Below are positions 26,232 to 63,325 of a stretch of 64,000 nucleotides of DNA, one piece after another. The stretch covers positions 198,520-262,519 of the forward strand of contig CAWDXC010000009.1 in assembly GCA_963806155.1 (NCBI GenBank), given 5' to 3'. The stretch comes from an uncultured Actinomycetes bacterium. GTDB taxonomy: Bacteria; Actinomycetota; Thermoleophilia; RBG-16-64-13. Below the pieces are notes generated by a model. That model made no database searches and was not told the origin of the DNA. It worked only from the letters and a program-made list of their open reading frames with translations. The first letter of the stretch is position 1. Every line of letters starts with the position of its first letter. The position numbers and the translations under genes are program-made.

Positions 26232-26270
26232 ACAGTATCATCAGAAGAAACCGATATCAAGTCCGTGAGT
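26232..26270 (-). promoter_or_regulatory. candidate promoter for the FAD/FeS dehydrogenase operon: ACTCACGGACTTGATA extended -35, 17-nt spacer, -10 TACTGT
   Basis: read on minus strand; upstream element nearly identical to the one at 50862..50880. Confidence 0.4.
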
Positions 26271-26323
26271 AAAACCCAATACTGCCCAGCCTCGCACCAT
26301 CCATCAACGTCCCGCGAGAGGCG

Positions 26324-27259
26324 CTAGAGCTCGAGCTCCGGGGGCAGAGGCGGCATCTGGCCGGCCAGTTCGGCGATGAGCCCCTCGTACTTGGCAAGCC
26401 GCGAATCGATGTCGATCTCGCCGCTGCGCGCCGCCTGCGCAGCGAGGAACAGCCACAAGTGAGCGCGAAGCAGGTCCGCCCGCGTGTGATTCCCTGGAGA
26501 GACCGCTCCGAAGACCGTCTCCTGGTAGGCGCCGAACAGGCTCAGGGCTATGAGGTCATCACGCGCGGCCGGTCTTCCCGCAGGCGCGGGGACCGCCGTG
26601 AGCTCCTTCATGATGCGCGCCACAGTACCGGCGAGACCTTCCTGGATGGACCGGCGCAGGTCGACGTCCTCCTGCGTTCCTTCCACGCGGATCACGGCAA
26701 AGGCGGCCACACCGAGTTGAAACACGCGAAAGTGGCTGAAGACGTCCCACAGCAAGCGCTCCGCCGGATCCTCCAAAGAAGCCGTCTTCTCGTCGGCGTA
26801 GCTGACACCCCAGTTCGTCAGCACACTCACGCATTCGGCCAGGAGCCTGCGTTTGCTGGGAAAGTGGGTGTAGAAGAGACTGGCGGTGATGCCCAGCCGA
26901 CGCATGAGGGTGGAGACGTGCGTGTTCTTGTAGCCCTTGGTGGAGAACTCGCGCGTGGCAAGAGCCAGGATGCGATTGTGCATCCGCTCATACTCCAGAG
27001 ACACAAGATCCACCGCGGTCTCGTTCGCCTGGTCGACGCGATGCTGAAGTCTATCCTCGATCTCGAGGATGGAAAGTCCGGTCCGTTTCAGCTCGGCGAT
27101 CTCCTGCAGGATCTTGACGTGGTCTTCGGTGTACAAGGATCGGCTGGCAGCGGTCTTCTGAGGGCGGGGGAGCAATCCCAGCCTGAGATAGTAGTGGATG
27201 GTGGTTCGGGGTACCCCACTCACCTTCTCGAGCTCCCGAATGGTAAACGCCTGGATCAC
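26324..27259 (-). CDS. MerR-HTH / TetR-like fusion transcriptional regulator, paralog 1
   Basis: N-term MerR HTH TIRELEKVSGVPRTTIHYYLRLGLLP, then TetR-like HTH domain (~residues 90-150); GTG start with GAGGAG SD. Confidence 0.75.
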   Translation of the reverse strand: MIQAFTIRELEKVSGVPRTTIHYYLRLGLLPRPQKTAASRSLYTEDHVKILQEIAELKRTGLSILEIEDRLQHRVDQANETAVDLVSLEYERMHNRILALATREFSTKGYKNTHVSTLMRRLGITASLFYTHFPSKRRLLAECVSVLTNWGVSYADEKTASLEDPAERLLWDVFSHFRVFQLGVAAFAVIRVEGTQEDVDLRRSIQEGLAGTVARIMKELTAVPAPAGRPAARDDLIALSLFGAYQETVFGAVSPGNHTRADLLRAHLWLFLAAQAARSGEIDIDSRLAKYEGLIAELAGQMPPLPPELEL

Positions 27260-27577
27260 CTTTGCTCCTCGCTAGGGACCGACGCGAGCCGAGAGGACTC
27301 CTCAGGTGCGTCGACTCCGACCGCTGCACATGCCGACAACAAGATTAGTCTCAAGTGACGGTCCGTGGCAACAACACCGCAGACGCTCGGGGCTTGCCGC
27401 CGACGTGCACAGACCGGGCACTAGCTTCGCTGAGGACCGTTCTCGATGTGGGAGGCAGGAGGGGCGCTGCTGGATCTAATTGAACTCCACTTGACAGAAA
27501 GCTATATCAAGTCTTAGACTTCAATCATGTAGCGCTGTAAGGGCCGATCGGCAGGCCGGTGACGAGCCACGCAGATC

Positions 27578-27598
27578 AGTGACCGTCTTGCGGTCACT
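27578..27598. promoter_or_regulatory. inverted repeat AGTGACCG-n5-CGGTCACT, candidate operator
   Basis: 8-bp perfect arms, ~20 bp upstream of the -35 of the alpha1 promoter. Confidence 0.4.
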
Positions 27599-27615
27599 AT
27601 GTATATTAACTTTAA

Positions 27616-27647
27616 GACTTGAGATGTTCTTTCAAACTTGCTAGTGT
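27616..27647 (+). promoter_or_regulatory. candidate promoter: GACTTGAGAT (-35 TTGAGA), 17-nt spacer, -10 TAGTGT
   Basis: shared architecture with promoters at 41333, 50875 and 63294 (minus strand); implies ~185-nt leader before ATG 27839. Confidence 0.45.
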
Positions 27648-27838
27648 GACGGAGGAGCGGGATGTCGCTGCAGAGAGTCGTGGGTGATCGGCCAGGATGG
27701 AGTCCTCACAGGAACAGTCGACGAGGATAGCGCGCATGACCCATCCTCCGGGTTGTCTTCGCCAAACCTCAGCTGAAGAAGACTGATTATGGAGAATCGA
27801 GCCGGATCCCAACTGGGGCAACATGAGGAAAGGAGCAC

Positions 27839-30541
27839 TTGATGCCGGCGGAAAACGATCGTCGCGCAGAATTGCGCATCAAAGACAAGACGGTACTCAA
27901 GACCCTCGCCCAGTGCTCCTATGCGCAGGGGGGCGAACTGGCGTCAGTGGACGTGAAGGACGGCAAGATCGTCCGCATCCGCCCCCACCACCACACCGAA
28001 AGATACACCGAAGAAGAGCTGGGGCAGTACGAGCTCGAGAAGGACGGCGTGAAGTACAAGACGCCACCCAAAGGTCTCCTCGCCCCCTATCAGATCGCCT
28101 ACAAGAAACGGGTCTACTCTCCCAACCGCATCCTCTACCCGCTCAAGCGAGTCGACTGGGATCCCGATGGGGAGAGGAACACCCAGAACCGGGGCAAAAG
28201 CAAGTACGTCCGCATCTCCTGGGACGAGGCGACCACCACCATCGCCGACGAGATCAAGCGCATCCACAAGGAGTACGGGCCCTATGGGGTGCTCGCCCAC
28301 GGTGACGGCCACGGCGAGACGAAGACCGTGCACGGAGCCCACGCCGTGATGATGGACCTCCTCGAGCTCACCGGCGGCTTCACCCAGGCCATCCGCAACG
28401 CGGACAGCTGGGAGGGTTGGTTCTGGGGCACCAAGCACGTCTGGGGCAACGGGGAGAACGGCCTCGTCCTCCCCGCCGACAACATGATGAACGACGTCAC
28501 CCAGAACACCGACATGATCGTCCACATCGGGGCCGATCTGGAGACCACCCCCTGGGGATTCGCGGGCCAGTTCCCCTCGAACGTCCTTTACTTCTGGCAG
28601 AAGCTAGGTAAGAAGCAAGTCTTTGTCTCCCCCGATCTCAACTACTCGGGCGCCATCCATGCGAGCAAGTGGATCCCCATCCTTCCTAACACCGATGCTG
28701 CCCTGCATCTGGCCATAGCCCATACCTGGATGACCGAGGGCACCTATGACAAGGACTACGTCGCCACCCATGTGGTGGGGTTCGACAAGTTCGAGGACTA
28801 CGTGCTCGGCCGCGAAGACGGGATCCCCAAGACTCCCGAGTGGGCCTCGGCCAAGACCGATGTGCCCGAATGGACCATCAAGGCTCTTGCCCGGGAATGG
28901 GCGGCGCAACCGACCACGGTCATGCACTTCTACGGTGGCTCCTACATCCGTGGCCCCTACTCCCACGAACCGGCCCGGCTGGAAGCCTGCCTCCTCGGCA
29001 TGCAGGGGTTGGGCAAACCGGGCTGCCACCAGTACTACAAGATGGGCGGCGACGACCACTGGATGAACGACACGCCCCGCCCCCTGAAGACCATCCCCGA
29101 CATGCGCATGAGATTCGACCCCACCATCGCCAAGGGCAGCGCGGATGGGCAACAGGGGCCACCTAGCTGGAACATCTTCCCCGGCCAGAAACAGCTGGCG
29201 GTCTCCTCCAAGCAGATCATCCCCAAGACGCAACTGGCTCAGGCCATCCTCGAGGGAACCTGCTGGAGCTCCGGGAGCACCCAGCAGTTCATGCACCTGG
29301 AAGACCAGTTCAAGAGGTACGAGTATCCCATCCCGGCGGAAGAGGGCGGCACCGAGATCCACATGATCTGGATGGACAACCCCTGCCGCACCACCTGCTG
29401 GAACGACGGCTTCATGACGGTGGAGGCCTTCCGCAGCCCCAAGATCGAGACCATCGTGGTGCAGCACCTGTGGCTGGAGAACGACACCATCCTGGCCGAC
29501 CTCATCCTGCCCGTCAACACCAAGCTGGAGGAGGAAGACATCGGCCGTATGTCCGCCGGCGGACGCTCCGTGCACGGCATCCTGCTCGAGAACCAGGCCA
29601 TCGAACCCTTGGGCGAATCGCTCTCCGACTACCAAGCCGTGGGTGAGGTGGCCAAGAAGCTGGGCCTCTACGAGGAGTTCAGCGCGGGGATGACCATAAA
29701 GGAGAAGATCAAGGCGGGCTTCGACAACATGGACATCCACGATTTCGTCACCTGGGAAGATTTCCAGGACAAGCAGTACTTCATCATGCCCACCGATCCC
29801 GAGTGGGATAAGGTCCCGGCCGGTCTGCGCCAGTTCTACGAAGATCCCGAGAAGCATCCGCTGGAGACCCCCAGCGGCAAGCTCGAGTTCTACTCCCAGC
29901 GTCTGGCCGATCACTACCCCGACGACAAAGTGAGAGGCCCTCTGCCCAAGTGGATCGAGAAGGACGAGTTCCACGACGAGCGGGTCTCCAGCCCGCGGGC
30001 GCAGGAGTACCCGCTGCTGCTCGTGACCAACCACGGCCGCTGGCGGACCCATGCTCAGAACGACGACATCCCCTGGCAGCGGGAGATCATGACCTGCAAG
30101 GTCAGAGGTTGGGACGGTTATCTGTACGAGCCCATCTGGATCCATCCCACGGATGCCGAAGCGAGGGGCATCAAGGACGGCGACATCCTCAAGATGTTCA
30201 ACGAGAGAGGTACCGTCCTCGGCGGAGCCCTCGTCTGGGAGCGCATCATGCCTGGAGCCGTGTCCATGGACCACGGCTCCCGCGTCGACCTCATCAACGT
30301 CGGTCCGGACGGTTTCCTCGATCGCGGGGGGGCGAACAACCTCATCTCTCCCATCAACGGCATCTCCCCCAACTGCTGGGGTATGGCCACGAGCAGCTTC
30401 CTGGTGGAGGTGCAGAAGGTGAGCATGGCCGAGATGGAGGAATGGCGGGAGAAGTACCCCGAGGCCTTTGCGAGGAAATACGACCCGGCCTCGGGTCTGC
30501 GCTTCGAGGCCTGGGTGTTAGAGGAAGGAGAGGCCCTATGA
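27839..30541 (+). CDS. molybdopterin (bis-MGD) oxidoreductase large subunit, pyrogallol transhydroxylase / resorcinol hydroxylase-like, cytoplasmic (alpha1)
   Basis: 900 aa; no Tat motif and no N-terminal Cys cluster; conserved YERISWDEA-like, NADSWEGWFWG, LEDxxKH.., FxDP, MopB C-terminal domain; stop overlaps beta start (ATGA). Confidence 0.8.
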   Translation: MMPAENDRRAELRIKDKTVLKTLAQCSYAQGGELASVDVKDGKIVRIRPHHHTERYTEEELGQYELEKDGVKYKTPPKGLLAPYQIAYKKRVYSPNRILYPLKRVDWDPDGERNTQNRGKSKYVRISWDEATTTIADEIKRIHKEYGPYGVLAHGDGHGETKTVHGAHAVMMDLLELTGGFTQAIRNADSWEGWFWGTKHVWGNGENGLVLPADNMMNDVTQNTDMIVHIGADLETTPWGFAGQFPSNVLYFWQKLGKKQVFVSPDLNYSGAIHASKWIPILPNTDAALHLAIAHTWMTEGTYDKDYVATHVVGFDKFEDYVLGREDGIPKTPEWASAKTDVPEWTIKALAREWAAQPTTVMHFYGGSYIRGPYSHEPARLEACLLGMQGLGKPGCHQYYKMGGDDHWMNDTPRPLKTIPDMRMRFDPTIAKGSADGQQGPPSWNIFPGQKQLAVSSKQIIPKTQLAQAILEGTCWSSGSTQQFMHLEDQFKRYEYPIPAEEGGTEIHMIWMDNPCRTTCWNDGFMTVEAFRSPKIETIVVQHLWLENDTILADLILPVNTKLEEEDIGRMSAGGRSVHGILLENQAIEPLGESLSDYQAVGEVAKKLGLYEEFSAGMTIKEKIKAGFDNMDIHDFVTWEDFQDKQYFIMPTDPEWDKVPAGLRQFYEDPEKHPLETPSGKLEFYSQRLADHYPDDKVRGPLPKWIEKDEFHDERVSSPRAQEYPLLLVTNHGRWRTHAQNDDIPWQREIMTCKVRGWDGYLYEPIWIHPTDAEARGIKDGDILKMFNERGTVLGGALVWERIMPGAVSMDHGSRVDLINVGPDGFLDRGGANNLISPINGISPNCWGMATSSFLVEVQKVSMAEMEEWREKYPEAFARKYDPASGLRFEAWVLEEGEAL

Positions 30542-31344: not shown

Positions 31345-31407
31345 CGCGTGCTTAGGATTAAGCTTGATAGGTCGGCTGGCGGCCCCAGCGAGATAGAAGG
31401 AGCGAGA

Positions 31408-32439
31408 TTGATCCCGGTACTCACTATCCGAGATCTCGAGGAATCGAGCGGGGTTCCGCGGACCACGATCCACTACTATCTGAGCATAGGCCTGCTCCCC
31501 CGCCCCCAGAAGACCGCCCGTAGCCGGTCTCTCTACACCAGGGACCACCTCGACATACTGCGAGAGATCGTGGAGCTCAAGCAGGCCGGGCTCGCTCTGG
31601 AGGAGATCCAAGCACAGCTGCAGCATACGGTCGACCGGGCCAACAACGGCGAGGTTGATCTTGCCGCTCAAGAGCATCGGCGCGTGCACGATAGGATCCT
31701 GGCTCTGGCTGCCCAGGAACTGGTCGCAAAGGGTTATAGGAAGACGCATGTCACGACTATTGTGCGCAAGCTCGGCATCACCACAGCCGTCTTCTACAGC
31801 CATTTTCCGAGCAAGCGCGCGCTCCTCTCGGAATGCGTCAGCGCGCTTCTGGGCTGGGGCCTCGAGTTTGTAGATGCCAAAGAGGCCTCGACGGACGACC
31901 CGGCCGAGCGCTTGCTCTGGCTTGTCTTTGGGCATTCGCACGTGTTTCAACTCGGCTCGACCGCCATGGCCCTGACCCGCGTCGACGGCGTCCAGGACGA
32001 GAGCGACCCACAAAGGCCTATGGAGGCGCTCTTCAAAAACATCGTGGAGCACATCAAGGGGGACCTGGCATACGTGCCCAGCGAAGGCTCGAAGCCACCC
32101 GCGGTGCCGGACGAACTCGTGGCCCACAGCCTGTTCGGTGCATATGAGCAGACTGTATTCAGGTCATTCTCGGACAAGATGTACACCCGTGAGGATCTGC
32201 TATTGACTCACCTATGGCTGTTCTTGGCCGTGCAGGCTGCGCGAAGCGGCGAGATCGACGTCGATTCAAGACTGGATAGATACAGGGAACTGGTGTCACA
32301 GCTCGCCACCCAGATGCCGCCTCTTCCCCCGCTCTTGCAGAATGAGAGCACCCATGACCGAGGCGGGGGGACGACGGCCGATCGGATGACTGCTGATGGT
32401 TTATCCCCGATCACTACGCAAGCTGACTCAATGACTTGA
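31408..32439 (+). CDS. MerR-HTH / TetR-like fusion transcriptional regulator, paralog 2
   Basis: TTG start with AAGGAG SD 6 nt upstream; LTIRDLEESSGVPRTTIHYYLSIGLLP MerR HTH plus TetR-like domain; ~55% identical to paralog 1. Confidence 0.7.
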   Translation: MIPVLTIRDLEESSGVPRTTIHYYLSIGLLPRPQKTARSRSLYTRDHLDILREIVELKQAGLALEEIQAQLQHTVDRANNGEVDLAAQEHRRVHDRILALAAQELVAKGYRKTHVTTIVRKLGITTAVFYSHFPSKRALLSECVSALLGWGLEFVDAKEASTDDPAERLLWLVFGHSHVFQLGSTAMALTRVDGVQDESDPQRPMEALFKNIVEHIKGDLAYVPSEGSKPPAVPDELVAHSLFGAYEQTVFRSFSDKMYTREDLLLTHLWLFLAVQAARSGEIDVDSRLDRYRELVSQLATQMPPLPPLLQNESTHDRGGGTTADRMTADGLSPITTQADSMT

Positions 32440-32624
32440 GACCGCTTTCTAAACATGTTAGCGTATGGTCTGGTCTTCTAAGGGCGGGACGGGAAGTACC
32501 GTTCGAAGGTCGTGAAGGGGGGTAGTCGACAAGAGAAGTGATCCTCGATCAGGCGTGTTCTTAGGCTCTTCAACCAAAGGATGCTTCAGCAACTGCATGT
32601 GCGACCTGTGAAACGGAGGGGGAC

Positions 32625-34121
32625 ATGAGCGAGGCGAACGAAACTCACGAAGACCGCAGCCGGGAAGAACAAGAGGAGAAGAGGCCGGCGAGACCGGTCA
32701 GCCGGCGTGATTTCCTGAAGATCGCCGGAATCGCCGGAGCGGCTGTGGGGGCCGGCGCCGGCCTGGGCGGCCTACTCGCCGCCTGCGGCGAAGAAGAAAC
32801 GACCACGACGACCGCGGGCGAGACGACCACCACCACGACCGCCGCCACCACAACGACCGCCGCCGCCGCGACGACCACCGTCAGCACTGCGGCAGAGACC
32901 GGCCGCGAGCTCAAGCTCGGTTTTGTTACGCCGACAACCGGGGCCCTGGCCTCCTTCGGCGTGCCCGACGGATACTGCGTCGAACGGGCGAAAGAGGTGA
33001 TCGCGGACGGGATCGTATGCGGTGACGGACTGAAGCACCCTGTCACAATCAAGGTCGTTGACAGCCAGTCAGACCCCAACCGGGCGGCACAGGTAGCAGG
33101 CGACCTCATCCTAAACGACAAGGTGGATATTATCCTCGTAGCCTCCGCACCCGACAACGTCGTGCCGGTGTCCGGTCAGGCTGAAGCGCTCGGGACACCG
33201 TGCCTCTCCTGCGACGCCCCCTGGCAGAGCTATATGGAGCCTCGGACCGGAGGCGACCTGACGGCGGTGTTCAAGTGGACCTATCACGTCTTCTTTGGTG
33301 GGGAGGACAGCTTCGACATCATGGCCGACGTGTTTCACCGGTTGCCGACCAACAACGTCCTGGCTTTGCTGTATTCCAACAGCTCCGACGGCAACGCCGT
33401 ACATGATCTCGAACTGCCGGTGCTCGAGGAGATGGGCTTCACCGTTGTCGATGGTAGTGGTTTTTCGGAAGGCACCGAAGACTTCACCTCGATAATCAGC
33501 ATGTTCAAGAAGGCGGGGGCCGAGCTGGGGCACGGTCTGCTTTCTCCCCCGGACTTCATCAACTTCTGGAAGCAATCGATCCAGCAGTCCTGGCTGCCAA
33601 AAACGTCCATATGGGGCAAAGCCCTACTTTTCCCCCAGTCCATGGAAGCGATCGGCCCCATCGGCTACGGTCTCTGTGCGGACCAGTGGTGGGGAGCGGA
33701 CTGGCCCTACAAGTCGGCTCTACTTGGAGAGACCTGCCGGCAGTTCGCAGATGACTATGAGGCCCGGACCGATTCGCAGTGGACACAGCCCGTGGCTCAC
33801 TTCATGCTCTTCGAGTGGGCCTATGACGTACTCAGTCGAACGGCCAGCGTGGATGACAAGGACGCGATCATGACGGCGGTCAAGAGCACCAAGCTTGAGA
33901 CCATTCTCGGCACCGTCGATTTTTCAGCGCCGGTGGAGCCGGTCGGACCGCCCTGGGCCGCGGGTCCACGGCACGTCGTGGAGAACGTCTACAAGATCAA
34001 CCATCCTGCCGGCCAGTGGATCAAGGGCACGAAGTGGCCCTTCGATTTGGTTACCGTCAGCAATGCCGGGTGTCCCGCCATTCCCGTGGCAGCCGAGCTA
34101 CAGCCCTATACCGTGAGCTGA
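32625..34121 (+). CDS. ABC transporter substrate-binding lipoprotein, PBP1 family, paralog 3
   Basis: GGAGGGGGAC SD; RRDFLKIAGIAGAAVGAGAGLGGLLAACG lipobox; Thr-rich linker. Confidence 0.85.
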   Translation: MSEANETHEDRSREEQEEKRPARPVSRRDFLKIAGIAGAAVGAGAGLGGLLAACGEEETTTTTAGETTTTTTAATTTTAAAATTTVSTAAETGRELKLGFVTPTTGALASFGVPDGYCVERAKEVIADGIVCGDGLKHPVTIKVVDSQSDPNRAAQVAGDLILNDKVDIILVASAPDNVVPVSGQAEALGTPCLSCDAPWQSYMEPRTGGDLTAVFKWTYHVFFGGEDSFDIMADVFHRLPTNNVLALLYSNSSDGNAVHDLELPVLEEMGFTVVDGSGFSEGTEDFTSIISMFKKAGAELGHGLLSPPDFINFWKQSIQQSWLPKTSIWGKALLFPQSMEAIGPIGYGLCADQWWGADWPYKSALLGETCRQFADDYEARTDSQWTQPVAHFMLFEWAYDVLSRTASVDDKDAIMTAVKSTKLETILGTVDFSAPVEPVGPPWAAGPRHVVENVYKINHPAGQWIKGTKWPFDLVTVSNAGCPAIPVAAELQPYTVS

Positions 34122-34135
34122 GCCGCAGACGACCT

Positions 34136-34174
34136 GGGCGGCGGTGCGCCTCGCGCCGCCGCCCAGTGTGTTTG
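34136..34174 (+). terminator. putative intrinsic terminator (GGGCGGCGG stem / CCGCCGCCC, then GTGTGTTTG)
   Basis: GC-rich hairpin 15 bp after the SBP stop, weak U-tract. Confidence 0.35.
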
Positions 34175-34216
34175 AATCCTTCGAGGAAGTAACGACCGAG
34201 AAGCATCCGTTCCAAC

Positions 34217-40235: not shown

Positions 40236-41195
40236 TCACCCCCAGCTTAGGCTTGCCAGGTCCCGCATGGCGATGCGGACGGTGCCCAGAGAGGCATCGC
40301 CTGAGATGACGGTGGAACCATCGATGCGCAGGCGGACCTCCGTCCCATCGGCGGCGACCAGATCGACCAGACACTCCTCGCCGGGCTCGCTGACGCTAAG
40401 GCGGGAGACGCGGGTCAACTCGACGTCGATCTGAGCCGGGCCGAGGGCTCCGGTGAGTTGGGTCTTGCCATTGCAGCGGACTACGCCGAGGTCGAACGGC
40501 GTGCCGTCGCGGCTGACCACCCGGGCTGGAGCATCCGGACCCGGCGAAGTGCCCTGCTCTGAAGAAGCCGCCGAAGCAAGCCAGCGCGTGACGGCATCGA
40601 CCATGAAGTTGACCACTTGCTCCGGTGGATAGCGGTCGTCGAGGCGGGAACGGAACCAGAGGTTCTCGGCGAGGCCGATGAAGCCATAGGCGGCAAGTTC
40701 GGCATCGACGTCACGAGCCCGCCCCGCCTGTATCGCAGCCTCCAGATCCCTCCGGAGAGGCTCGGTGAGGATCTCGTACGCTTCGCGGGCCTTGGTCTTG
40801 ACCTCCACGTCCGGGGACAGTTCGGCCGCGCGCAGCAGGTTGATGATCCCCGGCCACCAGTCGTAGAGGTGGACGGCCTCCACCCGCGGACCGACTCTCG
40901 TGAAGAAATCGCCTTCTCGTATCTTGGGAAGTGATTCGAATTCCCTGATCCGCTCGGTAACGTGGTCGAAACAGGTGAGCAGGAGCTCCTTCTTGTTGCG
41001 GAAGTAGAGATAGAAGGTGCCCTTCCCCATGTTCAGCGAATCAGTGATGTCGCCGACCCGCACGCGATCGTAGCCGACCTCGTTGAACATGATGACCGCC
41101 CGCTCGATGATGCGGTCTCGCTTGTCCTTGAGCTCGTCTCCCGCAGGGGCCGCGGCGACGGCGGAGAGGGCAGCATGCTTGCCTGAAGCCATCAT
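40236..41195 (-). CDS. TetR family regulator with ~120-aa C-terminal extra domain
   Basis: ORF 40236..41378; start placed at ATG 41195 (MMASGK..) so that the downstream promoter lies in intergenic DNA; HTH RIIERAVIMFNEVGYDRVRVGDITDSLNMGKGTFYLYF. Confidence 0.65.
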   Translation of the reverse strand: MMASGKHAALSAVAAAPAGDELKDKRDRIIERAVIMFNEVGYDRVRVGDITDSLNMGKGTFYLYFRNKKELLLTCFDHVTERIREFESLPKIREGDFFTRVGPRVEAVHLYDWWPGIINLLRAAELSPDVEVKTKAREAYEILTEPLRRDLEAAIQAGRARDVDAELAAYGFIGLAENLWFRSRLDDRYPPEQVVNFMVDAVTRWLASAASSEQGTSPGPDAPARVVSRDGTPFDLGVVRCNGKTQLTGALGPAQIDVELTRVSRLSVSEPGEECLVDLVAADGTEVRLRIDGSTVISGDASLGTVRIAMRDLASLSWG

Positions 41196-41332
41196 AGACT
41201 GGTCTCTTCCTTGTGCCTCGCGTTCGTTCGCCCGCGGATGGGAAGTGACTCCCCAGTCACTGTCTGAGAGCATATCAGAATCGCGTTTTAGAGCCAAGCG
41301 TTCTGTTGGCCCTAACGCCGCGAGGGCAAAGC

Positions 41333-41361
41333 TTGACAGGCTCATAAGAAATCGGTAGTGT
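41333..41361 (+). promoter_or_regulatory. candidate promoter TTGACA, 17-nt spacer, -10 TAGTGT
   Basis: sigma70/sigmaA-like hexamers with ideal spacing, ~170 nt upstream of alpha2 ATG. Confidence 0.5.
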
Positions 41362-41366
41362 GGTTG

Positions 41367-41394
41367 TGACTGACCCACCAGTCATTCTGACTGA
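41367..41394. promoter_or_regulatory. TGACTG-n6-CAGTCA inverted repeat plus extra TGACTGA copy, candidate operator at +1
   Basis: same TGACTGAC core as the etfBA palindrome at 46713..46732. Confidence 0.4.
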
Positions 41395-41530
41395 TGCGAC
41401 GGTCATCCAGCGAATCCCGGGGGGGCTTCACATCTTTGCAGAACTTCTATTCATCACGGGCTTGTCGATCTGACGGGCAAACAAGCCACCCCCTCACGGC
41501 CCAGCGACACGGACAGAGGAGAGGTACGCG

Positions 41531-46594: not shown

Positions 46595-46626
46595 ACAGCT
46601 GGCTCACTGCGCGGTTGAGTGGACGC

Positions 46627-46664
46627 GGCGGCGCCCGCGAGGGCGCCGCCGCTCCCCCTTTTTG
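46627..46664 (+). terminator. intrinsic terminator: GGCGGCGCCC-GCGA-GGGCGCCGCC hairpin plus CCCCCTTTTT
   Basis: perfect 10-bp GC stem, 4-nt loop, T-tract, 33 bp after SBP stop. Confidence 0.65.
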
Positions 46665-46678
46665 CCCCGCCGGCGGGC

Positions 46679-46707
46679 TTGACAAGCCTTGGGTAACTGG
46701 GTAGGGT
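46679..46707 (+). promoter_or_regulatory. candidate etfBA promoter TTGACA, 17-nt spacer, -10 TAGGGT
   Basis: ideal spacing; immediately followed by palindrome. Confidence 0.5.
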
Positions 46708-46712
46708 GGTGC

Positions 46713-46732
46713 ATGACTGACGAGTCAGTCAT
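46713..46732. promoter_or_regulatory. palindrome ATGACTGA-cgag-TCAGTCAT, candidate operator
   Basis: perfect 8-bp arms directly downstream of the -10. Confidence 0.45.
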
Positions 46733-50717: not shown

Positions 50718-50861
50718 TTCTGAAGACCACTGGCCCCGGGCGCCGGGCAGGCGCCGGCGGGCCCCGGACCAGAGAAGGGCATCGCGAGTGGATGGTGTCA
50801 TCTTCCACGGGAACGTGCCGCATCAGAGAGAGATCGCTGGCTCCGCGATTCGCTACCCATT

Positions 50862-50903
50862 GTCACTCACGAACTTGAGTCAGTGTTTTATAAGTGATAG
50901 TGT
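50862..50903 (+). promoter_or_regulatory. candidate promoter: GTCACTCACGAACTTGAGT extended -35, 17-nt spacer, -10 TAGTGT
   Basis: ~130 nt upstream of alpha3 GTG start; ACTCACGAACTTGA matches ACTCACGGACTTGA at 26251..26270. Confidence 0.5.
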
Positions 50904-51037
50904 AGGACGCGATCTACGGTTTTGGTCAGGAACAGAGTTGCTCGAGAGGGCCAAAGACCAGAGGAACGGGGGGCGATGAGAGTAGGACACACCAACAGCC
51001 ATCCTCGCTCAACTTCCAGAACGAAGGGAGCCCACTG

Positions 51038-53551: not shown

Positions 53552-53553
53552 CT

Positions 53554-57776: not shown

Positions 57777-57969
57777 TAACGAGCTGATGGTGGCCCTCCC
57801 CCAGCCAGGCCCGGCCAAGGGTCGGGTGTGGCGGCGGGAGGGCCCCACCATCCGGTTTGAACCGCCCTGCCTCCCTCGTCCGCCAAGCCAGAAGCCGGCC
57901 GCCCCTCCGAACGCTCGAAGAGTTCCGGAGGGGCGGCCGCTGGGGGGGCGCTGGAAACCCGGTTTCCTG

Positions 57970-59446: not shown

Positions 59447-59552
59447 GTCCCCTCCTTCTTCATCTCTCTTCCCTGCCGTATGAGGACTGTTCCGCGTAGC
59501 CTTGTTCCCCGCCTGATTCTGGTCGATTGTCGCAGTAGGTCCTCATGGGAGT

Positions 59553-60491
59553 TCAGCCCTCGAGGATCGGCGGCAGCGGCGGTGCGTCTGTCGCCAGGCG
59601 GTCGATCAGTTCGTTGTAACGACTCATCCGCGAATCAATGTCTATCTCCCCCCTTCTTGCCGCCTGAACGGCTAGGAACAACCACAGGTGCGTCTTCAGC
59701 AGGTCCTTGTGGCTGTACTTCTTGTCGGAGAACATGCGAAAGATCGTCTGCTCGTAAGCACCCAAGAGGCTATGGGCGACAAGCTCGTCGGGGACCGCGG
59801 GTGGCTTCGCGCCTCTCGCCGAGGTGTCGGCGAAATCTCTGGTAATGCGCTCGATCACGCCTTCGAGAGCTTCCTCGATGGGTTTGCGCAGTTCGCTATC
59901 GTCGTGTGTCCTCTCCACCCGGACAAGGGCGAGGCCCGACGAGCCCAGATCGAAGACATGAAGGCTTGCGAATGCCAGCCAAAGCAGTCTCTCGGCGGGG
60001 TCCTCCGTCGAGTCGCGTTTCGAGTCCCCATACGTGAGGCTCCAGGCCATCATCACCGAGACGCATTCGGCAAGAAGTCGCCGTTTGCTGGGAAAATGGC
60101 CGTAGAAGAGGCTTGCCGTTATCCCGAGCTTCTTCATGATCGTAGTCACGTGGGTGCTCTTGTAGCCTTTGGTGGTGAACTCCGCCACGGCCACCGCGAG
60201 GATGCGGTTGTGGACCCGCTGGTACTCCTGCGCGACCAGATCGACTCCGGCTTCATTGGCGCGATGGACCCGGGGCTCCAGTTCGGTCTCGATCTCGTCG
60301 AGAGACAGGCCGGCCTCCTTGAGCTCCCCGATCTTCTTGAGGATCTCCGCGTGCTCCTCGGTGTAGAGCGATCGGCTGGCGGCGGTCTTCTGAGGCAGGG
60401 GAAGCAGCCCCTGCCTCAAGTAATAGTGGATGGTGGTCCGCGGCACCCCCGTGGCCCGTTCGAGCTCCCCGATGGAAAGGACTTTGACCAC
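59553..60491 (-). CDS. MerR-HTH / TetR-like fusion transcriptional regulator, paralog 3
   Basis: GTG start with AGGAG SD, immediately downstream of the AOR stop; LSIGELERATGVPRTTIHYYLRQGLLP. Confidence 0.7.
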   Translation of the reverse strand: MVKVLSIGELERATGVPRTTIHYYLRQGLLPLPQKTAASRSLYTEEHAEILKKIGELKEAGLSLDEIETELEPRVHRANEAGVDLVAQEYQRVHNRILAVAVAEFTTKGYKSTHVTTIMKKLGITASLFYGHFPSKRRLLAECVSVMMAWSLTYGDSKRDSTEDPAERLLWLAFASLHVFDLGSSGLALVRVERTHDDSELRKPIEEALEGVIERITRDFADTSARGAKPPAVPDELVAHSLLGAYEQTIFRMFSDKKYSHKDLLKTHLWLFLAVQAARRGEIDIDSRMSRYNELIDRLATDAPPLPPILEG

Positions 60492-60499
60492 GCTCGCTC

Positions 60500-62410
60500 C
60501 TACGGCATCGCCGACGCCACGTCTTGCAGTCCGAGCGAGCGCAGGGTCTCCTCTTTGGGGATCCCCGTCTCCTCGTCCCACCCGCGCAGCTGATAGTACT
60601 CCTTGAGCATCTCCGTGAACCTCGCCTTGTCGAGCCGGTTGCCGGCCATGTCGACCACGGCGTCCCCTGGGCCGGGGACCAGCATCCCGTGCGTGCCGGA
60701 CCCACCCCAAGGCTTGGTGAAGTTGTATTCCAGAGGATAGTCCGCGGCCGGGACCTCGCGACCTTCCCGGATCAATATCGCCCGCTGGAGATTGGCGATG
60801 ATCTCTGCGCATCTTTCGAGCTCCTCGGCCGGACGTCCGGTGACCGCCGAATAGAGCTTCGCTTCCAGATCGGGGTCTCCGACGTGATCGGGAGTGACGA
60901 AGGAGTAGATGATGGGCCAGGTGAAATCGCATAGGCCCAGGCTGTCCATTAGATAGACGCGGTTCTGGATGAGCTTGGCCGCCAGCGCCTTGCCCTCGTA
61001 CGTGTTCAGGGCCCCCGCCTCCTCACTTCCCCAGAAAGCCTTGGCGATGTTGCGGAATTCCCTGTTCGTGATCGGAGTGCTGCCGGGGTCCAGCTGGTTG
61101 AGGGTCCAGGGGACCAGCGCGAAACCCGTGTCGTGCAGGAGCGGCTGGTGGACCCGAGGCTCCATGTAGTAGAGCAGGGAATGCACGATGTTGAGCCGGG
61201 GCGGTTGCAGCTCGAACTGGCCGATAGGCGCGACTTCCTCGCCCATGAGCGCACGAGCCACCGGTGACACTTCCTCCATCTTGGCAACTCTGGCCATACC
61301 TTCCGCCAGCAGGTCCCCGAAACCCTCGCGATGGGCGACCGCATGGAGGAGCTTCTCCAGGAACTCCTGGGTACCGATCTCGGCCAGGGGCAGGCCGGTC
61401 TCGGCCTCGGTCAGCGCCCCCGCCTTGTGGCACGCGTAGAGCCAGTTGATCATGCTTCGCAGTTCGAAGGTGTCGATGCAATAGTCGTTGGCCAGATCGG
61501 GCGCGTTGAAGAAGGTGTCCACCGGCTCGTCATCCCGCCCATACATCCAGGGCAGGTAGTACTCCATGGTCTGGCAGTGGCGCATTCCCTCGAGCCGCTT
61601 GTCATATCTGTATACATTGCGGATGCACTTGGCCCCGCACAGGTAACAGCCTCCCTTTCCGATGACCTCCACCACCTGTGCGTGACCGGTGCCGAGCACA
61701 TCGGGACCGATCGCCAGATGAAGCCTTTGGTTGATCTTCACTGTGTGACGGTTGAGCTCTCTGAGCCTCTCGGGATCCGCCGCGGAGACCCTCTGCGAAC
61801 CCCTGACGGCGATGCCTTTGAGGTTCTTGGAGCCCATCACGGCGCCAAAACCGCAGGAGAGGGCCGATTCGTGGGAGGCATAGGCCGTCGCCGTGCGGAC
61901 CAGGTTCTCTCCCGAGACCCCGATGGCGATGAACTTGGCGTCTGGGCCGTGGAGCTCCTGCAGCCGTTGTCCCGTCTTGAAGGCGCCCAGGCCCCACAGG
62001 CCGGCAGCCTCCCGGACCTCCACCTTTCCGTCGTCGATCCAGAGATACACAGGACTCGCGGCCTTGCCCGTCACGACCAACCCGTCGTAGCCGGCCTTCT
62101 TGATCTCGGCCCCCACGTACCCGGCGATGTTGCCGTAGCAATAGCTCTCCGGCAGCGCGCCGGGTGACTTCGCGACTACACATACCACCGTGGCTGCCTG
62201 AGCCCGCGAGGCCACCAGGGGGCCGGTCATGAAGATCAGCGGGTTTTCCGGGTCGAACGGCTTGATCCCGGGGTCCGTCATCTCCCAGTAGAGCCGAGCC
62301 GCGATCCCGCGGCCGCCGACGTAGTCCTCGATGTACGGCTCAGTGGGCGATTCCCGGGTCTCTGACGTACCAAGGTCGACGAAGAGGATCTTCCCCATCC
62401 ATCCGTCCAT
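60500..62410 (-). CDS. aldehyde:ferredoxin oxidoreductase (tungsten/molybdopterin AOR family)
   Basis: N-terminal MDGWMGKILFVDLG...GGRG AOR signature; 636 aa; Cys-containing Fe-S region GKGGCYLCGAKC. Confidence 0.85.
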   Translation of the reverse strand: MDGWMGKILFVDLGTSETRESPTEPYIEDYVGGRGIAARLYWEMTDPGIKPFDPENPLIFMTGPLVASRAQAATVVCVVAKSPGALPESYCYGNIAGYVGAEIKKAGYDGLVVTGKAASPVYLWIDDGKVEVREAAGLWGLGAFKTGQRLQELHGPDAKFIAIGVSGENLVRTATAYASHESALSCGFGAVMGSKNLKGIAVRGSQRVSAADPERLRELNRHTVKINQRLHLAIGPDVLGTGHAQVVEVIGKGGCYLCGAKCIRNVYRYDKRLEGMRHCQTMEYYLPWMYGRDDEPVDTFFNAPDLANDYCIDTFELRSMINWLYACHKAGALTEAETGLPLAEIGTQEFLEKLLHAVAHREGFGDLLAEGMARVAKMEEVSPVARALMGEEVAPIGQFELQPPRLNIVHSLLYYMEPRVHQPLLHDTGFALVPWTLNQLDPGSTPITNREFRNIAKAFWGSEEAGALNTYEGKALAAKLIQNRVYLMDSLGLCDFTWPIIYSFVTPDHVGDPDLEAKLYSAVTGRPAEELERCAEIIANLQRAILIREGREVPAADYPLEYNFTKPWGGSGTHGMLVPGPGDAVVDMAGNRLDKARFTEMLKEYYQLRGWDEETGIPKEETLRSLGLQDVASAMP

Positions 62411-62443
62411 ACCAGCAACCTCCCCTGGCCGCGGCCGCGCCGA

Positions 62444-63199
62444 CTAGTCGATGTACTGCTCGAAGGCCTCCAGATCTGCCGCCGGTAATCCTTCCCTAAA
62501 AGTCTTAAGCTTGGCTTCACCCTTGGGTGTAATGGAGGTGACTCCGTCGACGGTCTGCACGTAGCCCATAAGTTCAAGCTCTTCCCTCAGAACGCGGACC
62601 ATCTGGGTACCCAGCGGAGGATAGATGCCTTCTATCTCCTCCTTCGCGAAGGTATCAAGGATCTCGTCCGACGCTACCCCTCCCCTCGTGGCGAGCTTCT
62701 TGAGGATGGCCATCTCCCTTCTGAAGTAAGGAGTGTCGTAGCCCTTCTCGCTGAGGTCGAACGCCTCGAGCTTCAGGAGCATCGAGGTCCTCGTATCGGG
62801 GCAGATAACGGTCGGCTCACTCTGAAGATTCTCTCTTTCGCTTGGCGGCCAAGCAAAGACCTCGGGATTGGTGAGATTGGCCATATCGAAGGGAGGAGGG
62901 ACTACCGTCTTGAGCACGTTCCTGAAACCAAGCCCGTCGTACTTCTTCATTTCGTCGTCATAGACGCTGAGTGAGCAGTACCAGAAGGGATAATAGGAAA
63001 TCCACTCCACGTACCTTGGCCCGGCCTGGTGAAGGGCCTCGACCTTGGGGACTATCCTGCTCCACACATCCGGGCACAGTCTCCCGTGATAGCTCTCACC
63101 ATCGAAGATGACTTCATCGCCCACCTTATGCTTGAAATGACAGGGATAGACTTCCTCATTGCCCAAGAAAGCGACGACGGTGGCTTTGACCTGAAACAC
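62444..63199 (-). CDS. TIGR04076-like domain protein (paralog of 4179..4925)
   Basis: MFQVKATVVAF...YPCHF...GRLCP; 33 bp upstream of AOR, so likely same operon. Confidence 0.6.
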   Translation of the reverse strand: MFQVKATVVAFLGNEEVYPCHFKHKVGDEVIFDGESYHGRLCPDVWSRIVPKVEALHQAGPRYVEWISYYPFWYCSLSVYDDEMKKYDGLGFRNVLKTVVPPPFDMANLTNPEVFAWPPSERENLQSEPTVICPDTRTSMLLKLEAFDLSEKGYDTPYFRREMAILKKLATRGGVASDEILDTFAKEEIEGIYPPLGTQMVRVLREELELMGYVQTVDGVTSITPKGEAKLKTFREGLPAADLEAFEQYID

Positions 63200-63293
63200 G
63201 CGTCCCTCCTTCGTTCGTTCCTGTACGAGGTCTGCGCCCGGTCTACGGTCCCATCAGCAGACGACTGTGACCAGCCGAACCAACTCTTCAGCC

Positions 63294-63325
63294 AACCTAT
63301 CACTCACAGAAATGAATCTCAAGTC
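63294..63325 (-). promoter_or_regulatory. candidate promoter (minus strand): GACTTGAGAT, 17-nt spacer, -10 TAGGTT, with CTGTGAGTGA in spacer
   Basis: exact GACTTGAGAT decamer also at 27616..27625; ~90 nt upstream of ATG 63199. Confidence 0.45.

What the first reader, a model, noticed from the sequence alone, without database searches (positions are those of the whole stretch)
26232..63325. Shared promoter architecture with extended -35 (GACTTGAGAT / ACTCACGRACTTGA) across five operons
Five candidate promoters have a TTGA(C/G)(A/T) hexamer, an exact 17-nt spacer and a -10 of TAG(T/G)GT, TAGGTT or TACTGT. They lie upstream of alpha1 (27616), alpha2 (41333), alpha3 (50875), the TIGR04076-AOR-regulator operon (63294..63325, minus) and the FAD/FeS dehydrogenase operon (26232..26270, minus). 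The decamer GACTTGAGAT occurs exactly at two of them. The 14-mer ACTCACG(G/A)ACTTGA occurs at two others. GTGAGTGA / GTCACTCAC elements recur in the spacers and flanks. This looks like a co-regulated regulon with a dedicated activator or sigma recognition element rather than chance.
Basis: seen in the sequence. Interest (0 to 1): 0.7.

Follow-up and report, generated by a model that had tools for sequence, protein, structure and literature searches.

The report
Shared promoter-operator module of MerR-TetR regulon
The underlying promoter type is the organism's ordinary one, and the fifth promoter belongs to a different TetR-type circuit.

Summary
The sequence observation is real. All five sites are TTGAnn-17 nt-TAnnnT, and both exact repeats sit where stated and exceed chance.

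- **The core is not regulon-specific.** The same pattern hits 10 times in the 64 kb window, against about 1.4 expected. All 10 hits are intergenic and point at the gene downstream. Three lie outside the finding, in front of IclR, binding-protein and MarR genes.
- **Class A is a specific module.** Consensus: cTAtG-N7-ACTCAAnGAC-TTGAnAT-N3-TTTcT-N5-TGa-TAGTnT. It occurs six times in the window: P1, P3, P4, P5, plus new sites at 32436(+) and 27510(-). It scored no hit of 16 bits or more in about 0.95 Mb of control loci or in 1.28 Mb of shuffled sequence.
- **It tracks the regulator.** It recurs beside MerR-TetR fusion regulator genes in independent metagenome contigs. That includes 7 sites in 5 of 6 held-out loci. 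There it precedes the regulator itself, molybdenum-enzyme alpha subunits, FAD dehydrogenases or binding proteins.
- **P2 (alpha2) is a different class.** It shares a TGACnG-N6-CnGTCA palindrome over the transcription start with a new electron-transfer-flavoprotein promoter at 46679.
- **The GTGAGTGA repeats are not enriched.**

Most likely the fusion regulator binds the module over the -35 box and represses until an inducer arrives. Binding and its direction are inferred, not shown.

The parts
27596..27647 (+). Class-A module P1, in front of the alpha1-beta1-regulator2 operon. ACTATG (27596), ACTTTAAGAC, -35 TTGAGA (27619-27624), 17-nt spacer with CTTTC, -10 TAGTGT (27642-27647).
   Evidence: Conserved block in the L001 alignment. 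Orthologous promoters upstream of alpha homologues in L017, L002, L013 and L010.
27482..27533 (-). Class-A module facing regulator 1 (26324-27259). AGTCTAAGAC, TTGATA (27510-27505), TTTCT spacer, degenerate -10 GAGTTC (TAGTTC in L001). A plus-strand promoter TTGACA-18-TAGACT (27491-27520) overlaps it face to face.
   Evidence: 25.4 bits on the upstream sub-matrix. The whole block is 100% conserved in L001, while the intergenic region overall is 81% identical.
26232..26283 (-). Class-A module P5, in front of the FAD/FeS dehydrogenase operon (24606-26073 and downstream). ACTCACGGAC, TTGATA (26260-26255), TTTCT, TGA-TACTGT (26237-26232).
   Evidence: Near-identical module downstream of a 69%-identical regulator in L082.
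32413..32464 (+). It overlaps the stop codon of regulator 2 and precedes the binding-protein gene 32625-34121. ACTACG, ACTCAATGAC, TTGAGA (32436-32441), TTTCT, TAGCGT (32459-32464).
   Evidence: Same arrangement in L086, L088, L089, L165 and L001.
50852..50903 (+). Class-A module P3, in front of alpha3-beta3-alpha4-beta4. GCTACC, ACTCACGAAC, TTGAGT (50875-50880), TTTT, TGA-TAGTGT (50898-50903).
63294..63345 (-). Class-A module P4 (weaker upstream half), in front of the TIGR04076-AOR-regulator3(-binding protein) operon. GCTATG, GCTAGATGAC, TTGAGA (63322-63317), TTTCT, TGA-TAGGTT (63299-63294).
   Evidence: (34.4 bits).
41333..41405 (+). Class-B promoter P2, in front of the alpha2 operon. GCTTGACA-17-TAGTGT (41333-41361), followed by two tandem 18-nt palindromes TGACTG-N6-CAGTCA (41367-41384 and 41388-41405) over the expected transcription start. 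No class-A element.
   Evidence: 3 matches in the window against 0.06 expected; no class-A score.
46679..46731 (+). GCTTGACA-17-TAGGGT (46679-46707), then palindrome TGACTGAC-GA-GTCAGTCA (46714-46731). A terminator-like hairpin (46618-46659) precedes it.
41244..41297 (-). Promoter of the TetR gene 40236-41195 and the FAD/CCG operon behind it. TTGGCT (41297-41292)-17-TGaTATGCT (41274-41269), with palindrome AGTGACT-CCCC-AGTCACT (41244-41261) over the start. The half-site is related to the class-B operator but the spacing differs.
   Evidence: Read from sequence.
26324..27259 (-). MerR-TetR fusion regulator 1. MerR winged-helix domain at residues 5-72, TetR_N at 97-143, TetR-like C-terminal domain.
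31348..32439 (+). MerR-TetR fusion regulator 2, last gene of the P1 operon.
59553..60491 (-). MerR-TetR fusion regulator 3, inside the P4 operon. The start at GTG 60491 is inferred from alignment to regulator 1.
40236..41195 (-). Plain TetR-family regulator, candidate binder of the class-B palindromes.
8466..8494 (+). Generic promoter TTGAAT-17-TAAAGT in front of an IclR gene. No class-A element.
13177..13205 (-). Generic promoter TTGACC-17-TAGCTT in front of binding-protein gene 11664-13142. No class-A element.
18315..18343 (-). Generic promoter TTGACA-17-TAGTAT in front of a MarR-like ORF (17803-18273). No class-A element.

Best explanation
The window comes from an uncultured Thermoleophilia/Gaiellales-like actinobacterium. 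It is a catabolic island built around paralogous pyrogallol-transhydroxylase-like molybdenum enzymes. Its transcription units start at ordinary housekeeping (SigA-type) promoters, TTGAnn-17-TAnnnT, often with a TGn extended -10.

Two regulator-specific control sites are laid over this common core.

**Class A.** Sites: P1 27619, P3 50875, P4 63322, P5 26260, plus 32436 and 27510(-). It is an asymmetric module of about 52 nt running from about -58 to -7. It holds an optional cTAtG, then ACTCAAnGAC directly abutting a TTGA(G/T/A)A(T/C) -35 box, an invariant T-tract in the spacer, and TGaTAGnnT. I infer that this is the binding site of the MerR-TetR fusion regulators encoded beside or inside these operons. 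There are three copies of that regulator in the window.

The intrinsic promoter is near-consensus, with a good -35, the optimal 17-nt spacer and an extended -10. The site also covers the -35 box and the DNA upstream of it. The most likely mode is therefore TetR-like repression and autorepression, relieved when a substrate-derived ligand binds the TetR-like C-terminal domain.

**Class B.** Sites: P2 41333 and the ETF promoter 46679. Here the operator is an 18-nt palindrome TGACnG-N6-CnGTCA over the transcription start, probably bound by the plain TetR regulator at 40236-41195.

**Shown:** the motif, its statistics, its conservation and its association with the regulator gene.

**Inferred:** that the fusion protein binds it, that the effect is repression, and the identity of the inducer.
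For: **Core promoter.**
- 10 matches against 1.37 expected.
- All 10 lie in the 8.5% of the window that is intergenic and are correctly oriented.
- The closest relatives are Actinomycetes, Gaiellales and Thermoleophilia genomes assembled from metagenomes.

**Class-A specificity.**
- 22 non-redundant sites align with invariant T-8, A-2, T+12 and A+24.
- The matrix gives 6 hits in the window, all at 25 bits or more.
- It gives no hit of 16 bits or more in 765 kb of non-actinobacterial alpha-subunit loci, none in 187 kb of distant MerR loci, and none in 1.28 Mb of shuffles.

**Association with the regulator.**
- Loci fetched with the regulator protein alone carry the module.
- There it sits directly upstream of the regulator gene (L085, L090, L093, L082, L084, L010).
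- Or it sits upstream of alpha subunits (L092, L089, L088, L010, L013, L017, L002).
- Or it sits upstream of FAD dehydrogenases (L086, L082).
- Held-out loci never used for the matrix give 7 sites in 5 of 6 loci. Each precedes a regulator operon or a neighbouring alpha, binding-protein or FAD operon, except L163 +11035, which faces a convergent SDR gene. Other promoters in those same loci lack the module.

**Not explained by gene duplication.**
- alpha1 and alpha2 are 82% identical but have different promoter classes.
- alpha1 and alpha3 are 37% identical but share class A.
- Class A also precedes unrelated genes: FAD dehydrogenase, binding protein, TIGR04076/AOR.

**Class B.** 3 palindromes against 0.06 expected, all directly after the two GCTTGACA promoters.

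**Regulator domains.** MerR_1 plus TetR_N, with canonical matches to both families among solved structures.
Against: - No binding, transcription-start or expression data exist, so the link between regulator and site is by association only.
- The module is not clearly palindromic. The best dyad is only TCAA-N4-TTGA, with 0.42-0.43 of pairs complementary and several competing centres. It is not a direct repeat either. That is unusual for a homodimeric TetR or MerR protein.
- An asymmetric, helically phased conservation from -58 to -7 is also what contacts by RNA polymerase itself would give.
- Every locus examined was fetched through alpha-subunit or regulator genes. I could not scan a whole genome to show that the module is absent from housekeeping promoters.
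- Some regulator homologues (L081, L083, L087, L162) show no module nearby. Several of them sit mid-operon or on short contigs.
- Repression versus activation is not decided by sequence.
Confidence: 0.68

Rival explanations
1. Same module and same regulator, but the fusion protein is a class-II-type activator. It would bind at about -41 to -45, touching the -35 box, and recruit RNA polymerase when the substrate is present.
For: - The conserved ACTCAAnGAC block lies exactly where class-II activators sit, immediately upstream of and abutting the -35 box.
- The module is strictly oriented relative to the gene, with fixed spacing to the -10 box, in all aligned sites. That suits a protein that must contact polymerase.
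- MerR-family proteins are often activators (general knowledge).
Against: - The promoters look strong on their own: a 5/6 match at -35, the optimal 17-nt spacer and a TGn extended -10. Activator-dependent promoters usually have a poor -35.
- The effector-binding half of the protein is TetR-like, and that family consists mostly of repressors.
Confidence: 0.2
2. The extended -35 is read by a dedicated alternative sigma factor or another polymerase-associated factor, not by the MerR-TetR protein. The regulator genes would simply belong to that sigma factor's regulon.
For: - The module is asymmetric, directional and conserved in helically phased blocks across the whole polymerase footprint, with no convincing dyad or direct repeat.
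Against: - The -35 core, the 17-nt spacing and the -10 (TAGnnT) are the same as in class-B and generic promoters of the same window and of related loci.
- None of the ORFs submitted to Pfam matched a sigma-factor family; several had no match at all.
- The module follows the MerR-TetR gene, not the alpha-subunit gene. Alpha-subunit operons that sit next to IclR or TetR regulators lack it.
Confidence: 0.07
3. There is no special regulon. These are ordinary strong housekeeping promoters, and the shared decamers are chance or residue from duplicated promoter cassettes of paralogous operons.
For: - The core pattern is generic and also occurs at unrelated genes.
- The operons do contain paralogues.
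Against: - The exact repeats exceed chance.
- The extended matrix has no hit of 16 bits or more in about 2.2 Mb of control and shuffled DNA, but hits 7 times in 118 kb of held-out regulator loci.
- Promoter class does not follow gene phylogeny.
- Conservation is position-specific, with the bases in between randomised, even across contigs whose regulators are only 52-70% identical.
Confidence: 0.05

Closest known systems
Actinobacterial housekeeping (SigA/HrdB-type) promoters: TTGACA-like -35, 17-18 nt spacer, TAnnnT -10, frequent TGn extended -10 (consensus from my own knowledge of published start-site maps in Mycobacterium, Streptomyces and Corynebacterium).
   Same: All ten core sites fit this consensus, in the right place and orientation. 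The organism is an actinobacterium.
   Different: Class A adds about 25 conserved positions outside the two hexamers that generic promoters of the same genomes lack.
TetR-family repressor/operator circuits (TetR-tetO, QacR-IR1, KstR): a ligand-released repressor encoded next to its targets, autoregulated, with the operator overlapping the promoter.
   Same: - The regulator has a TetR_N helix-turn-helix and a TetR-like C-terminal domain.
- It is encoded beside or inside the controlled operons, and the site also precedes its own gene.
- Class B is a textbook case, with an 18-nt palindrome over the transcription start.
   Different: - The class-A site is about 50 nt long and essentially asymmetric.
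- The protein carries an extra N-terminal MerR-type winged-helix domain.
- I found no description of this fusion in the searchable literature.
MerR-family promoters (MerR, CueR, SoxR, BmrR): a dyad operator inside an over-long 19-20 nt spacer, with activation by DNA untwisting.
   Same: The regulator's N-terminus is a canonical MerR winged-helix domain. Best solved matches: 4ua1 (E-value 1e-8), MtaN, CadR.
   Different: The spacer is exactly 17 nt in every site, and no dyad is centred in the spacer. The DNA-distortion mechanism is therefore not needed and not indicated.
HspR and its HAIR operator, CTTGAGT-N7-ACTCAAG (Grandvalet et al. 1999, as quoted in PMC6102357). HspR is a MerR-family repressor of actinobacterial heat-shock operons whose operator overlaps the -35 box.
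   Same: - The class-A core ACTCAA-nGA-CTTGAG contains the same two 6-7-nt words and overlaps the -35 box.
- There is a weak match of the MerR domain to the HspR model (E-value 1.4e-4, far below the curated cut-off).
   Different: - The words are in the opposite order and 3-4 nt apart, not 7.
- Only TCAA/TTGA is consistently symmetric.
- The target genes are catabolic, not chaperones.
Mce3R-type single-chain regulators with two DNA-binding modules (PDB 9b7y turned up as a distant match).
   Same: One polypeptide carries two helix-turn-helix modules, which could explain a long non-palindromic operator.
   Different: Mce3R is two fused TetR modules, whereas this protein is MerR plus one TetR module. 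The similarity is limited to the TetR part. How the fusion binds DNA is unknown.

Membership tests
Sigma-70/SigA-type promoter | -35 hexamer resembling TTGACA | tested here: met
   TTGA at positions 1-4 in all 10 core sites. Class A reads TTGA(G/T/A)A and class B reads TTGACA.
Sigma-70/SigA-type promoter | 16-18 nt spacer and a -10 hexamer TAnnnT | tested here: met
   The spacer is exactly 17 nt at the 10 window core sites and at all 25 aligned class-A sites. The -10 is TA(G/C)nnT at those 10 core sites (GAGTTC at the 27510(-) module; TAAAGT at the generic site 8466), with TGn upstream in most class-A sites.
Sigma-70/SigA-type promoter | Located upstream of, and oriented towards, a transcription unit | tested here: met
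   10 of 10 are intergenic and correctly oriented, while only 8.5% of the window is intergenic.
Sigma-70/SigA-type promoter | Transcription actually starts 6-8 nt after the -10 | not testable with these tools
   Needs 5'-RACE, dRNA-seq or Cappable-seq.
MerR-type (spacer-distortion) promoter | Suboptimal 19-20 nt spacer between -35 and -10 | tested here: not met
   17 nt in every site.
MerR-type (spacer-distortion) promoter | Dyad-symmetric operator centred in the spacer | tested here: not met
   The dyad scan over 25 sites gives spacer centres (+7.5/+8) only 0.39-0.42 complementary pairs. That is no better than other centres.
MerR-type (spacer-distortion) promoter | Cognate regulator has a MerR N-terminal winged-helix domain | tested here: met
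   PF13411/PF00376 match at residues 5-72. Solved MerR-family structures match.
TetR-family repressor/operator circuit | Regulator with a TetR_N helix-turn-helix plus a helical ligand-binding domain | tested here: met
   PF00440 at residues 97-143. TetR-family solved structures align over residues 90-250.
TetR-family repressor/operator circuit | Palindromic operator overlapping the promoter or transcription start | tested here: inconclusive
   - Class B: met. TGACnG-N6-CnGTCA occurs 3 times against 0.06 expected, right after the -10.
- Class A: the site overlaps the -35 box, but only a 4-bp TCAA/TTGA symmetry is present.
TetR-family repressor/operator circuit | Regulator gene adjacent to its targets and preceded by its own site (autoregulation) | tested here: met
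   - In the window, regulators 2 and 3 lie inside class-A operons, and regulator 1 is faced by module 27510(-).
- In metagenome contigs, six sites lie directly upstream of the regulator gene, and more appear in held-out loci.
TetR-family repressor/operator circuit | Protein binds the site and is released by a ligand | not testable with these tools
   Needs gel-shift, DAP-seq or ITC experiments.
HspR/HAIR regulon | Inverted repeat CTTGAGT-N7-ACTCAAG | tested here: not met
   Class A has ACTCAA-N4-TTGAG(A/T): the opposite order and shorter spacing. HAIR consensus taken from PMC6102357.
UP element (alpha-CTD site) | A/T-rich tract between -40 and -60, not gene-specific | tested here: not met
   The upstream block contains conserved C and G positions (C-9, C-7, G-3, C-1). 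It is confined to operons linked to the regulator.

The most novel reading that the evidence does not exclude
The MerR-TetR fusion may be a new kind of two-headed regulator. Its four DNA-reading heads per dimer, or two per monomer, would read a long, asymmetric, helically phased site of about 50 bp that includes the -35 and extended -10 elements themselves. In that reading the protein co-occupies or templates the promoter with RNA polymerase instead of binding a classical palindromic operator. This would define a widespread regulon for molybdenum-enzyme-based breakdown of phenolic compounds in uncultured soil Thermoleophilia. At least 197 protein clusters of this regulator exist, and none is characterised.
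Probability: 0.15. Interest if true: 0.65.

Novelty: new variant of a known kind. Interest (0 to 1): 0.42.

Why it matters
- **A usable search pattern.** The module gives a concrete cis-element for a large regulator family that carries only generic names: at least 197 clusters at 90% identity, and no paper on the fusion. These regulators control paralogous pyrogallol-transhydroxylase-like molybdenum enzymes, FAD/FeS dehydrogenases, an AOR enzyme and binding proteins in uncultured Gaiellales/Thermoleophilia from soils and sediments.
- **Regulon prediction in uncultured genomes.** The motif lets one predict regulon membership directly from genomes assembled from metagenomes. It also separates near-identical paralogues: alpha1 and alpha2 are 82% identical but sit under different regulators.
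- **Parts for experiments.** It supplies defined promoter and operator parts for testing in a host that can be grown.
- **Limits.** Operators overlapping promoters in catabolic islands are routine, so this is not a surprise for the transcription field. The unusual points are the two-domain regulator and the long asymmetric site.

Tried and rejected
- **Riboswitch or leader RNA in the long 5' UTRs.** No Rfam family matched at gathering thresholds. The alpha1 leader has large insertions and deletions relative to the 95%-identical relative L001. Rejected.
- **Generic promoter scanner.** It missed all five sites, because TAGTGT matches TATAAT at only 3 of 6 positions. I replaced it with explicit pattern scans.
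- **TCACTCAC/GTGAGTGA as a separate element.** Not enriched. In P3 it is simply part of the ACTCA block, and in P4 it overlaps the TGATAG of the extended -10.
- **Palindrome 27578-27598 (AGTGACCG-N5-CGGTCACT) as the P1 operator.** Not conserved in L001. Set aside.
- **Dyad symmetry and direct-repeat periodicity of the class-A module.** Both weak.
- **HAIR-type operator.** The words are shared but the geometry differs.
- **Exact-protein look-ups.** alpha1 and P0076 are not on record.
- **First literature search.** Swamped by word-start matches and uninformative.
- **Class-A sites next to regulator homologues L081, L083, L087 and L162.** None found. These genes sit mid-operon or on short contigs.
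- **Promoter between regulator 3 and the binding-protein gene (59447-59552).** None found.

Full report
**1. The observation**

- GACTTGAGAT occurs at 27616(+) and 63325(-). Shuffles expect 0.11, and no shuffle reaches two copies.
- ACTCACGRACTTGA occurs at 26270(-) and 50865(+). Shuffles expect 0.00.

Reading the DNA confirms that all five sites have TTGAnn, exactly 17 nt, then TAnnnT (TAGTGT three times, TAGGTT, TACTGT). Four of the five also have a TGn extended -10.

ORF and domain searches confirm the genes downstream:
- Three AhtL/pyrogallol-transhydroxylase-like molybdopterin alpha subunits. Each is followed by a beta subunit with a Fer4_11 domain and a CarboxypepD_reg domain.
- A TIGR04076-AOR-regulator operon.
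- An FAD_binding_4/CCG dehydrogenase operon.

Three regulators are fusions of a MerR winged-helix domain and a TetR domain (26324-27259, 31348-32439, 59553-60491). One is a plain TetR (40236-41195).

**2. The core architecture is the organism's ordinary promoter**

The bare pattern TTGANN-N17-TANNNT has only 10 matches on both strands of the whole 64 kb. Second-order Markov simulations expect 1.37, with a maximum of 6. All ten lie in the 8.5% of the window that is intergenic, and all point at the gene downstream.

Beyond the five flagged sites, the other five are:
- 32436(+), in front of a binding-protein gene.
- 46679(+), in front of the electron-transfer-flavoprotein (ETF) genes.
- Three sites outside the finding's span: 8466(+) before an IclR gene, 13205(-) before a binding-protein gene, and 18343(-) before a MarR-like ORF.

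The closest relatives of alpha1 come from Actinomycetes, Gaiellales and Thermoleophilia genomes assembled from metagenomes, at 95%, 82%, 80% and 79% identity. TTGACA-17/18-TAnnnT with frequent TGn is the housekeeping promoter consensus in Actinobacteria (my own knowledge). So the sites are very probably real promoters, but the shared -35/17/-10 frame is not itself a regulon signature.

**3. Two classes sit on top of that core**

When all ten sites are aligned with their flanks, they split into classes.
- **Class A** has (G/A)ACTTGA(G/T)(A/T)(T/C): 26260(-), 27619(+), 32436(+), 50875(+) and 63322(-). A further copy of GACTTGATAT lies on the minus strand at 27513.
- **Class B** has GCTTGACA: 41333(+) and 46679(+). 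The site 18343(-) has the same TTGACA -35 hexamer (CCTTGACA) but no palindrome, so I count it with the generic promoters.

Class B carries its own operator. TGACNG-N6-CNGTCA occurs three times in the window against 0.06 expected. Two tandem copies follow the -10 of P2 (41367 and 41388), and one follows the -10 of the ETF promoter (46714).

The adjacent TetR gene has its own promoter, TTGGCT-17-TATGCT, on the minus strand. A related palindrome, AGTGACT-CCCC-AGTCACT, lies over its start.

P2 therefore belongs to a TetR-type circuit together with the ETF operon, not with the other four flagged promoters.

**4. Class A is a long, specific, conserved module**

*Conservation in relatives.* Upstream of alpha homologues in related genomes the same arrangement recurs, always with a 17-nt spacer:
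- L017: GACTTGAAAT...TAGTGT
- L013: GACTTGATAC...TAGTGT
- L010: GACTTGTAAT...TACCGT
- L002: AACTTGCAAT...TAGTAT

In the P1 intergenic region, which is 81% identical to L001, the fully conserved blocks are P1 itself and the 27485-27540 block.

*Independent test through the regulator.* MerR-TetR homologues flank the alpha genes in L001, L002, L010, L017 and L052. I then fetched 80 metagenome loci using only an alignment of the regulator proteins, so the retrieval could not be biased by the motif. These loci carry the motif next to the regulator gene, for example:
- L085: ACTCAACGACTTGATA...TGATAGTGT
- L086: ACTCAAAGACTTGAAA...TAGCGT
- L082: ACTCACGGATTTGATATCAGTTTCTT, almost identical to window P5

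*Consensus.* Twenty-two non-redundant sites were aligned, with positions counted from the first T of the -35 box:

cTAtG (-22..-18) / T-12 / A-10 C T C A a n G A C-1 / TTGAnA T / TTTcT (+10..+14) / TGa (+20..+22) / TAGTnT

T-8, A-2, T+12 and A+24 are invariant.

*What lies downstream in the metagenome contigs.*
- The regulator itself: six cases.
- Alpha subunits: seven cases.
- FAD_binding_4 dehydrogenases: two cases.

This is the same set of gene types as in the window.

**5. Specificity and held-out validation**

Results for the 52-column matrix:

| DNA scanned | Size | Sites |
|---|---|---|
| Window | 64 kb | 6, all at 25 bits or more, none between 12 and 25 bits |
| Non-actinobacterial alpha-subunit loci | 765 kb | 0 at 16 bits or more (one hit at 12-16 bits) |
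| Distant MerR-only loci | 187 kb | 0 at 12 bits or more |
| Shuffled window | 1.28 Mb | 0 at 12 bits or more |

P2 does not score.

I then fetched six more loci through regulator homologues that were never used to build the matrix. These 118 kb hold seven sites in five of the six loci:
- L161: in front of the regulator gene.
- L163: in front of an FAD-CCG-FAD-regulator operon, plus a second site after the regulator gene.
- L164: after the regulator gene.
- L165: between the regulator gene and a molybdenum-enzyme alpha gene (49.8 bits).
- L166: in front of an alpha gene, and in front of a binding-protein-FAD-CCG-FAD-regulator operon.

Other promoters in these same loci have the generic TTGACn core without the module. 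One of them precedes an AhtL-like alpha gene that sits next to IclR regulators. The module therefore follows the MerR-TetR regulator, not the enzyme family and not the lineage's promoters in general.

**6. The similarity is not a leftover of duplication**

- alpha1 and alpha2 are 82% identical but have class A and class B promoters respectively.
- alpha1 and alpha3 are only 37% identical yet share class A.
- Class A also precedes unrelated genes.

The similarity is confined to specific positions, with the bases in between randomised.

**7. How it probably works**

The regulator has a canonical MerR winged-helix domain (residues 5-72). A helix of about 25 residues follows, then a complete TetR module. 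No curated family covers it. At least 197 clusters of this fusion exist, all with generic names. No paper in the library mentions such a fusion.

- **Classical MerR mechanism: excluded.** The spacer is 17 nt everywhere, and there is no dyad in the spacer.
- **Repression: favoured.** The intrinsic promoter is near-consensus, and the conserved block covers and abuts the -35 box. I favour TetR-like repression with autorepression, relieved by an inducer, at about 0.5 of the total probability. A class-II-type activator gets about 0.2.
- **Dedicated sigma factor: unlikely, about 0.07.** All classes share the same -10 box and the same spacing.

One caveat matters. The module is asymmetric. Only TCAA-N4-TTGA is symmetric, and there is no repeat periodicity. 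That is atypical for a homodimeric operator. It might reflect two different DNA-reading heads per chain, or it might reflect contacts made by RNA polymerase itself.

The core words ACTCAA and CTTGAG are the half-sites of the HspR operator HAIR, CTTGAGT-N7-ACTCAAG (PMC6102357). Their order and spacing differ, so I treat this as a lead and not as membership.

**8. The regulator-1 intergenic region**

The minus-strand module 27533-27482 has a degenerate -10 box: GAGTTC here, TAGTTC in L001. It overlaps a strong plus-strand promoter, TTGACA-18-TAGACT (27491-27520), face to face. One bound protein could control both directions. What the plus-strand promoter expresses beyond reading into P1 is unresolved.

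**9. Verdict**

- A regulator-specific extended -35 module is real, but it covers four of the five flagged promoters plus two that were missed.
- The fifth flagged promoter belongs to a separate TetR circuit.
- The basic architecture is the ordinary housekeeping promoter type.
- The element is more likely a regulator binding site than a sigma-factor element.

This is a new operator motif for an uncharacterised two-domain regulator family. It is useful and moderately interesting, but it is not a new principle.

Noticed in passing
window 27491-27520 (+), overlapping 27482-27533 (-): A near-consensus promoter, TTGACA-18-TAGACT, lies face to face inside the minus-strand class-A module and 128 nt upstream of P1. 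The block is 100% conserved in L001. It contains the short palindrome AAGTCT-T-AGACTT. What it transcribes is unknown.
   Followed up: partly
window 27578-27598: A perfect 8-9 bp hairpin or palindrome, AGTGACCG-N5-CGGTCACT, lies just upstream of P1. It is not conserved in the close relative L001, so it is probably not essential. Its right arm overlaps the cTAtG element.
   Followed up: partly
window 27842-30541 versus 41531-44179, 51038-53551 and 54432-56945: alpha1 and alpha2 are 82% identical paralogues under different regulators: the MerR-TetR fusion for alpha1 and a plain TetR for alpha2. alpha3 and alpha4 are 56% identical to each other and 37% identical to alpha1 and alpha2. This looks like regulatory rewiring after duplication.
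   Followed up: partly
window 17803-18273 (-): A MarR-like ORF lies behind the generic promoter at 18343. The overlapping plus-strand ORF 17662-18321 had no Pfam match.
   Followed up: partly
window 34134-34166 and 46618-46659: Strong GC-rich terminator-like hairpins follow the two binding-protein genes. The second one, with a T-run, is followed at once by the ETF promoter. They mark the ends of transcription units.
   Followed up: no
window 32625-34121 and 45116-46594: These Peripla_BP_6 substrate-binding proteins carry twin-arginine (TAT) signal sequences. Five paralogous binding-protein genes occur in the window, but I saw no adjacent ABC permease or ATPase genes next to most of them.
   Followed up: no
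window 37312-38897, 48833-50717, 1101-2891, 5117-6182: Several genes appear split across overlapping ORFs or reading frames: an FAD_binding_4 gene, a CCG/FeS oxidoreductase, an ABC ATPase and a URO-D-like gene. These could be frameshifts, assembly errors or pseudogenes.
   Followed up: no
L162 11914 and 13498; L166 14050 and 15632: Related genomes share another recurrent promoter type, CTATTGACTTTCG(C/T)CC...GCG(A/G)TACG(T/G)T. It sits upstream of enoyl-CoA hydratase and 3-hydroxyacyl-CoA dehydrogenase genes and probably marks a different regulon.
   Followed up: no
L163 11035 (+): A 33.5-bit class-A site just after the regulator gene points at a convergently oriented SDR gene. It could be an orphan operator, an antisense promoter or the promoter of an uncalled small gene.
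   Followed up: no
window 26074-26231, 27648-27841, 41362-41530, 50904-51037: All of these operons have long 5' leaders of about 90-190 nt. No Rfam family matches them. The alpha1 leader has insertions and deletions of 25-45 nt relative to L001.
   Followed up: partly
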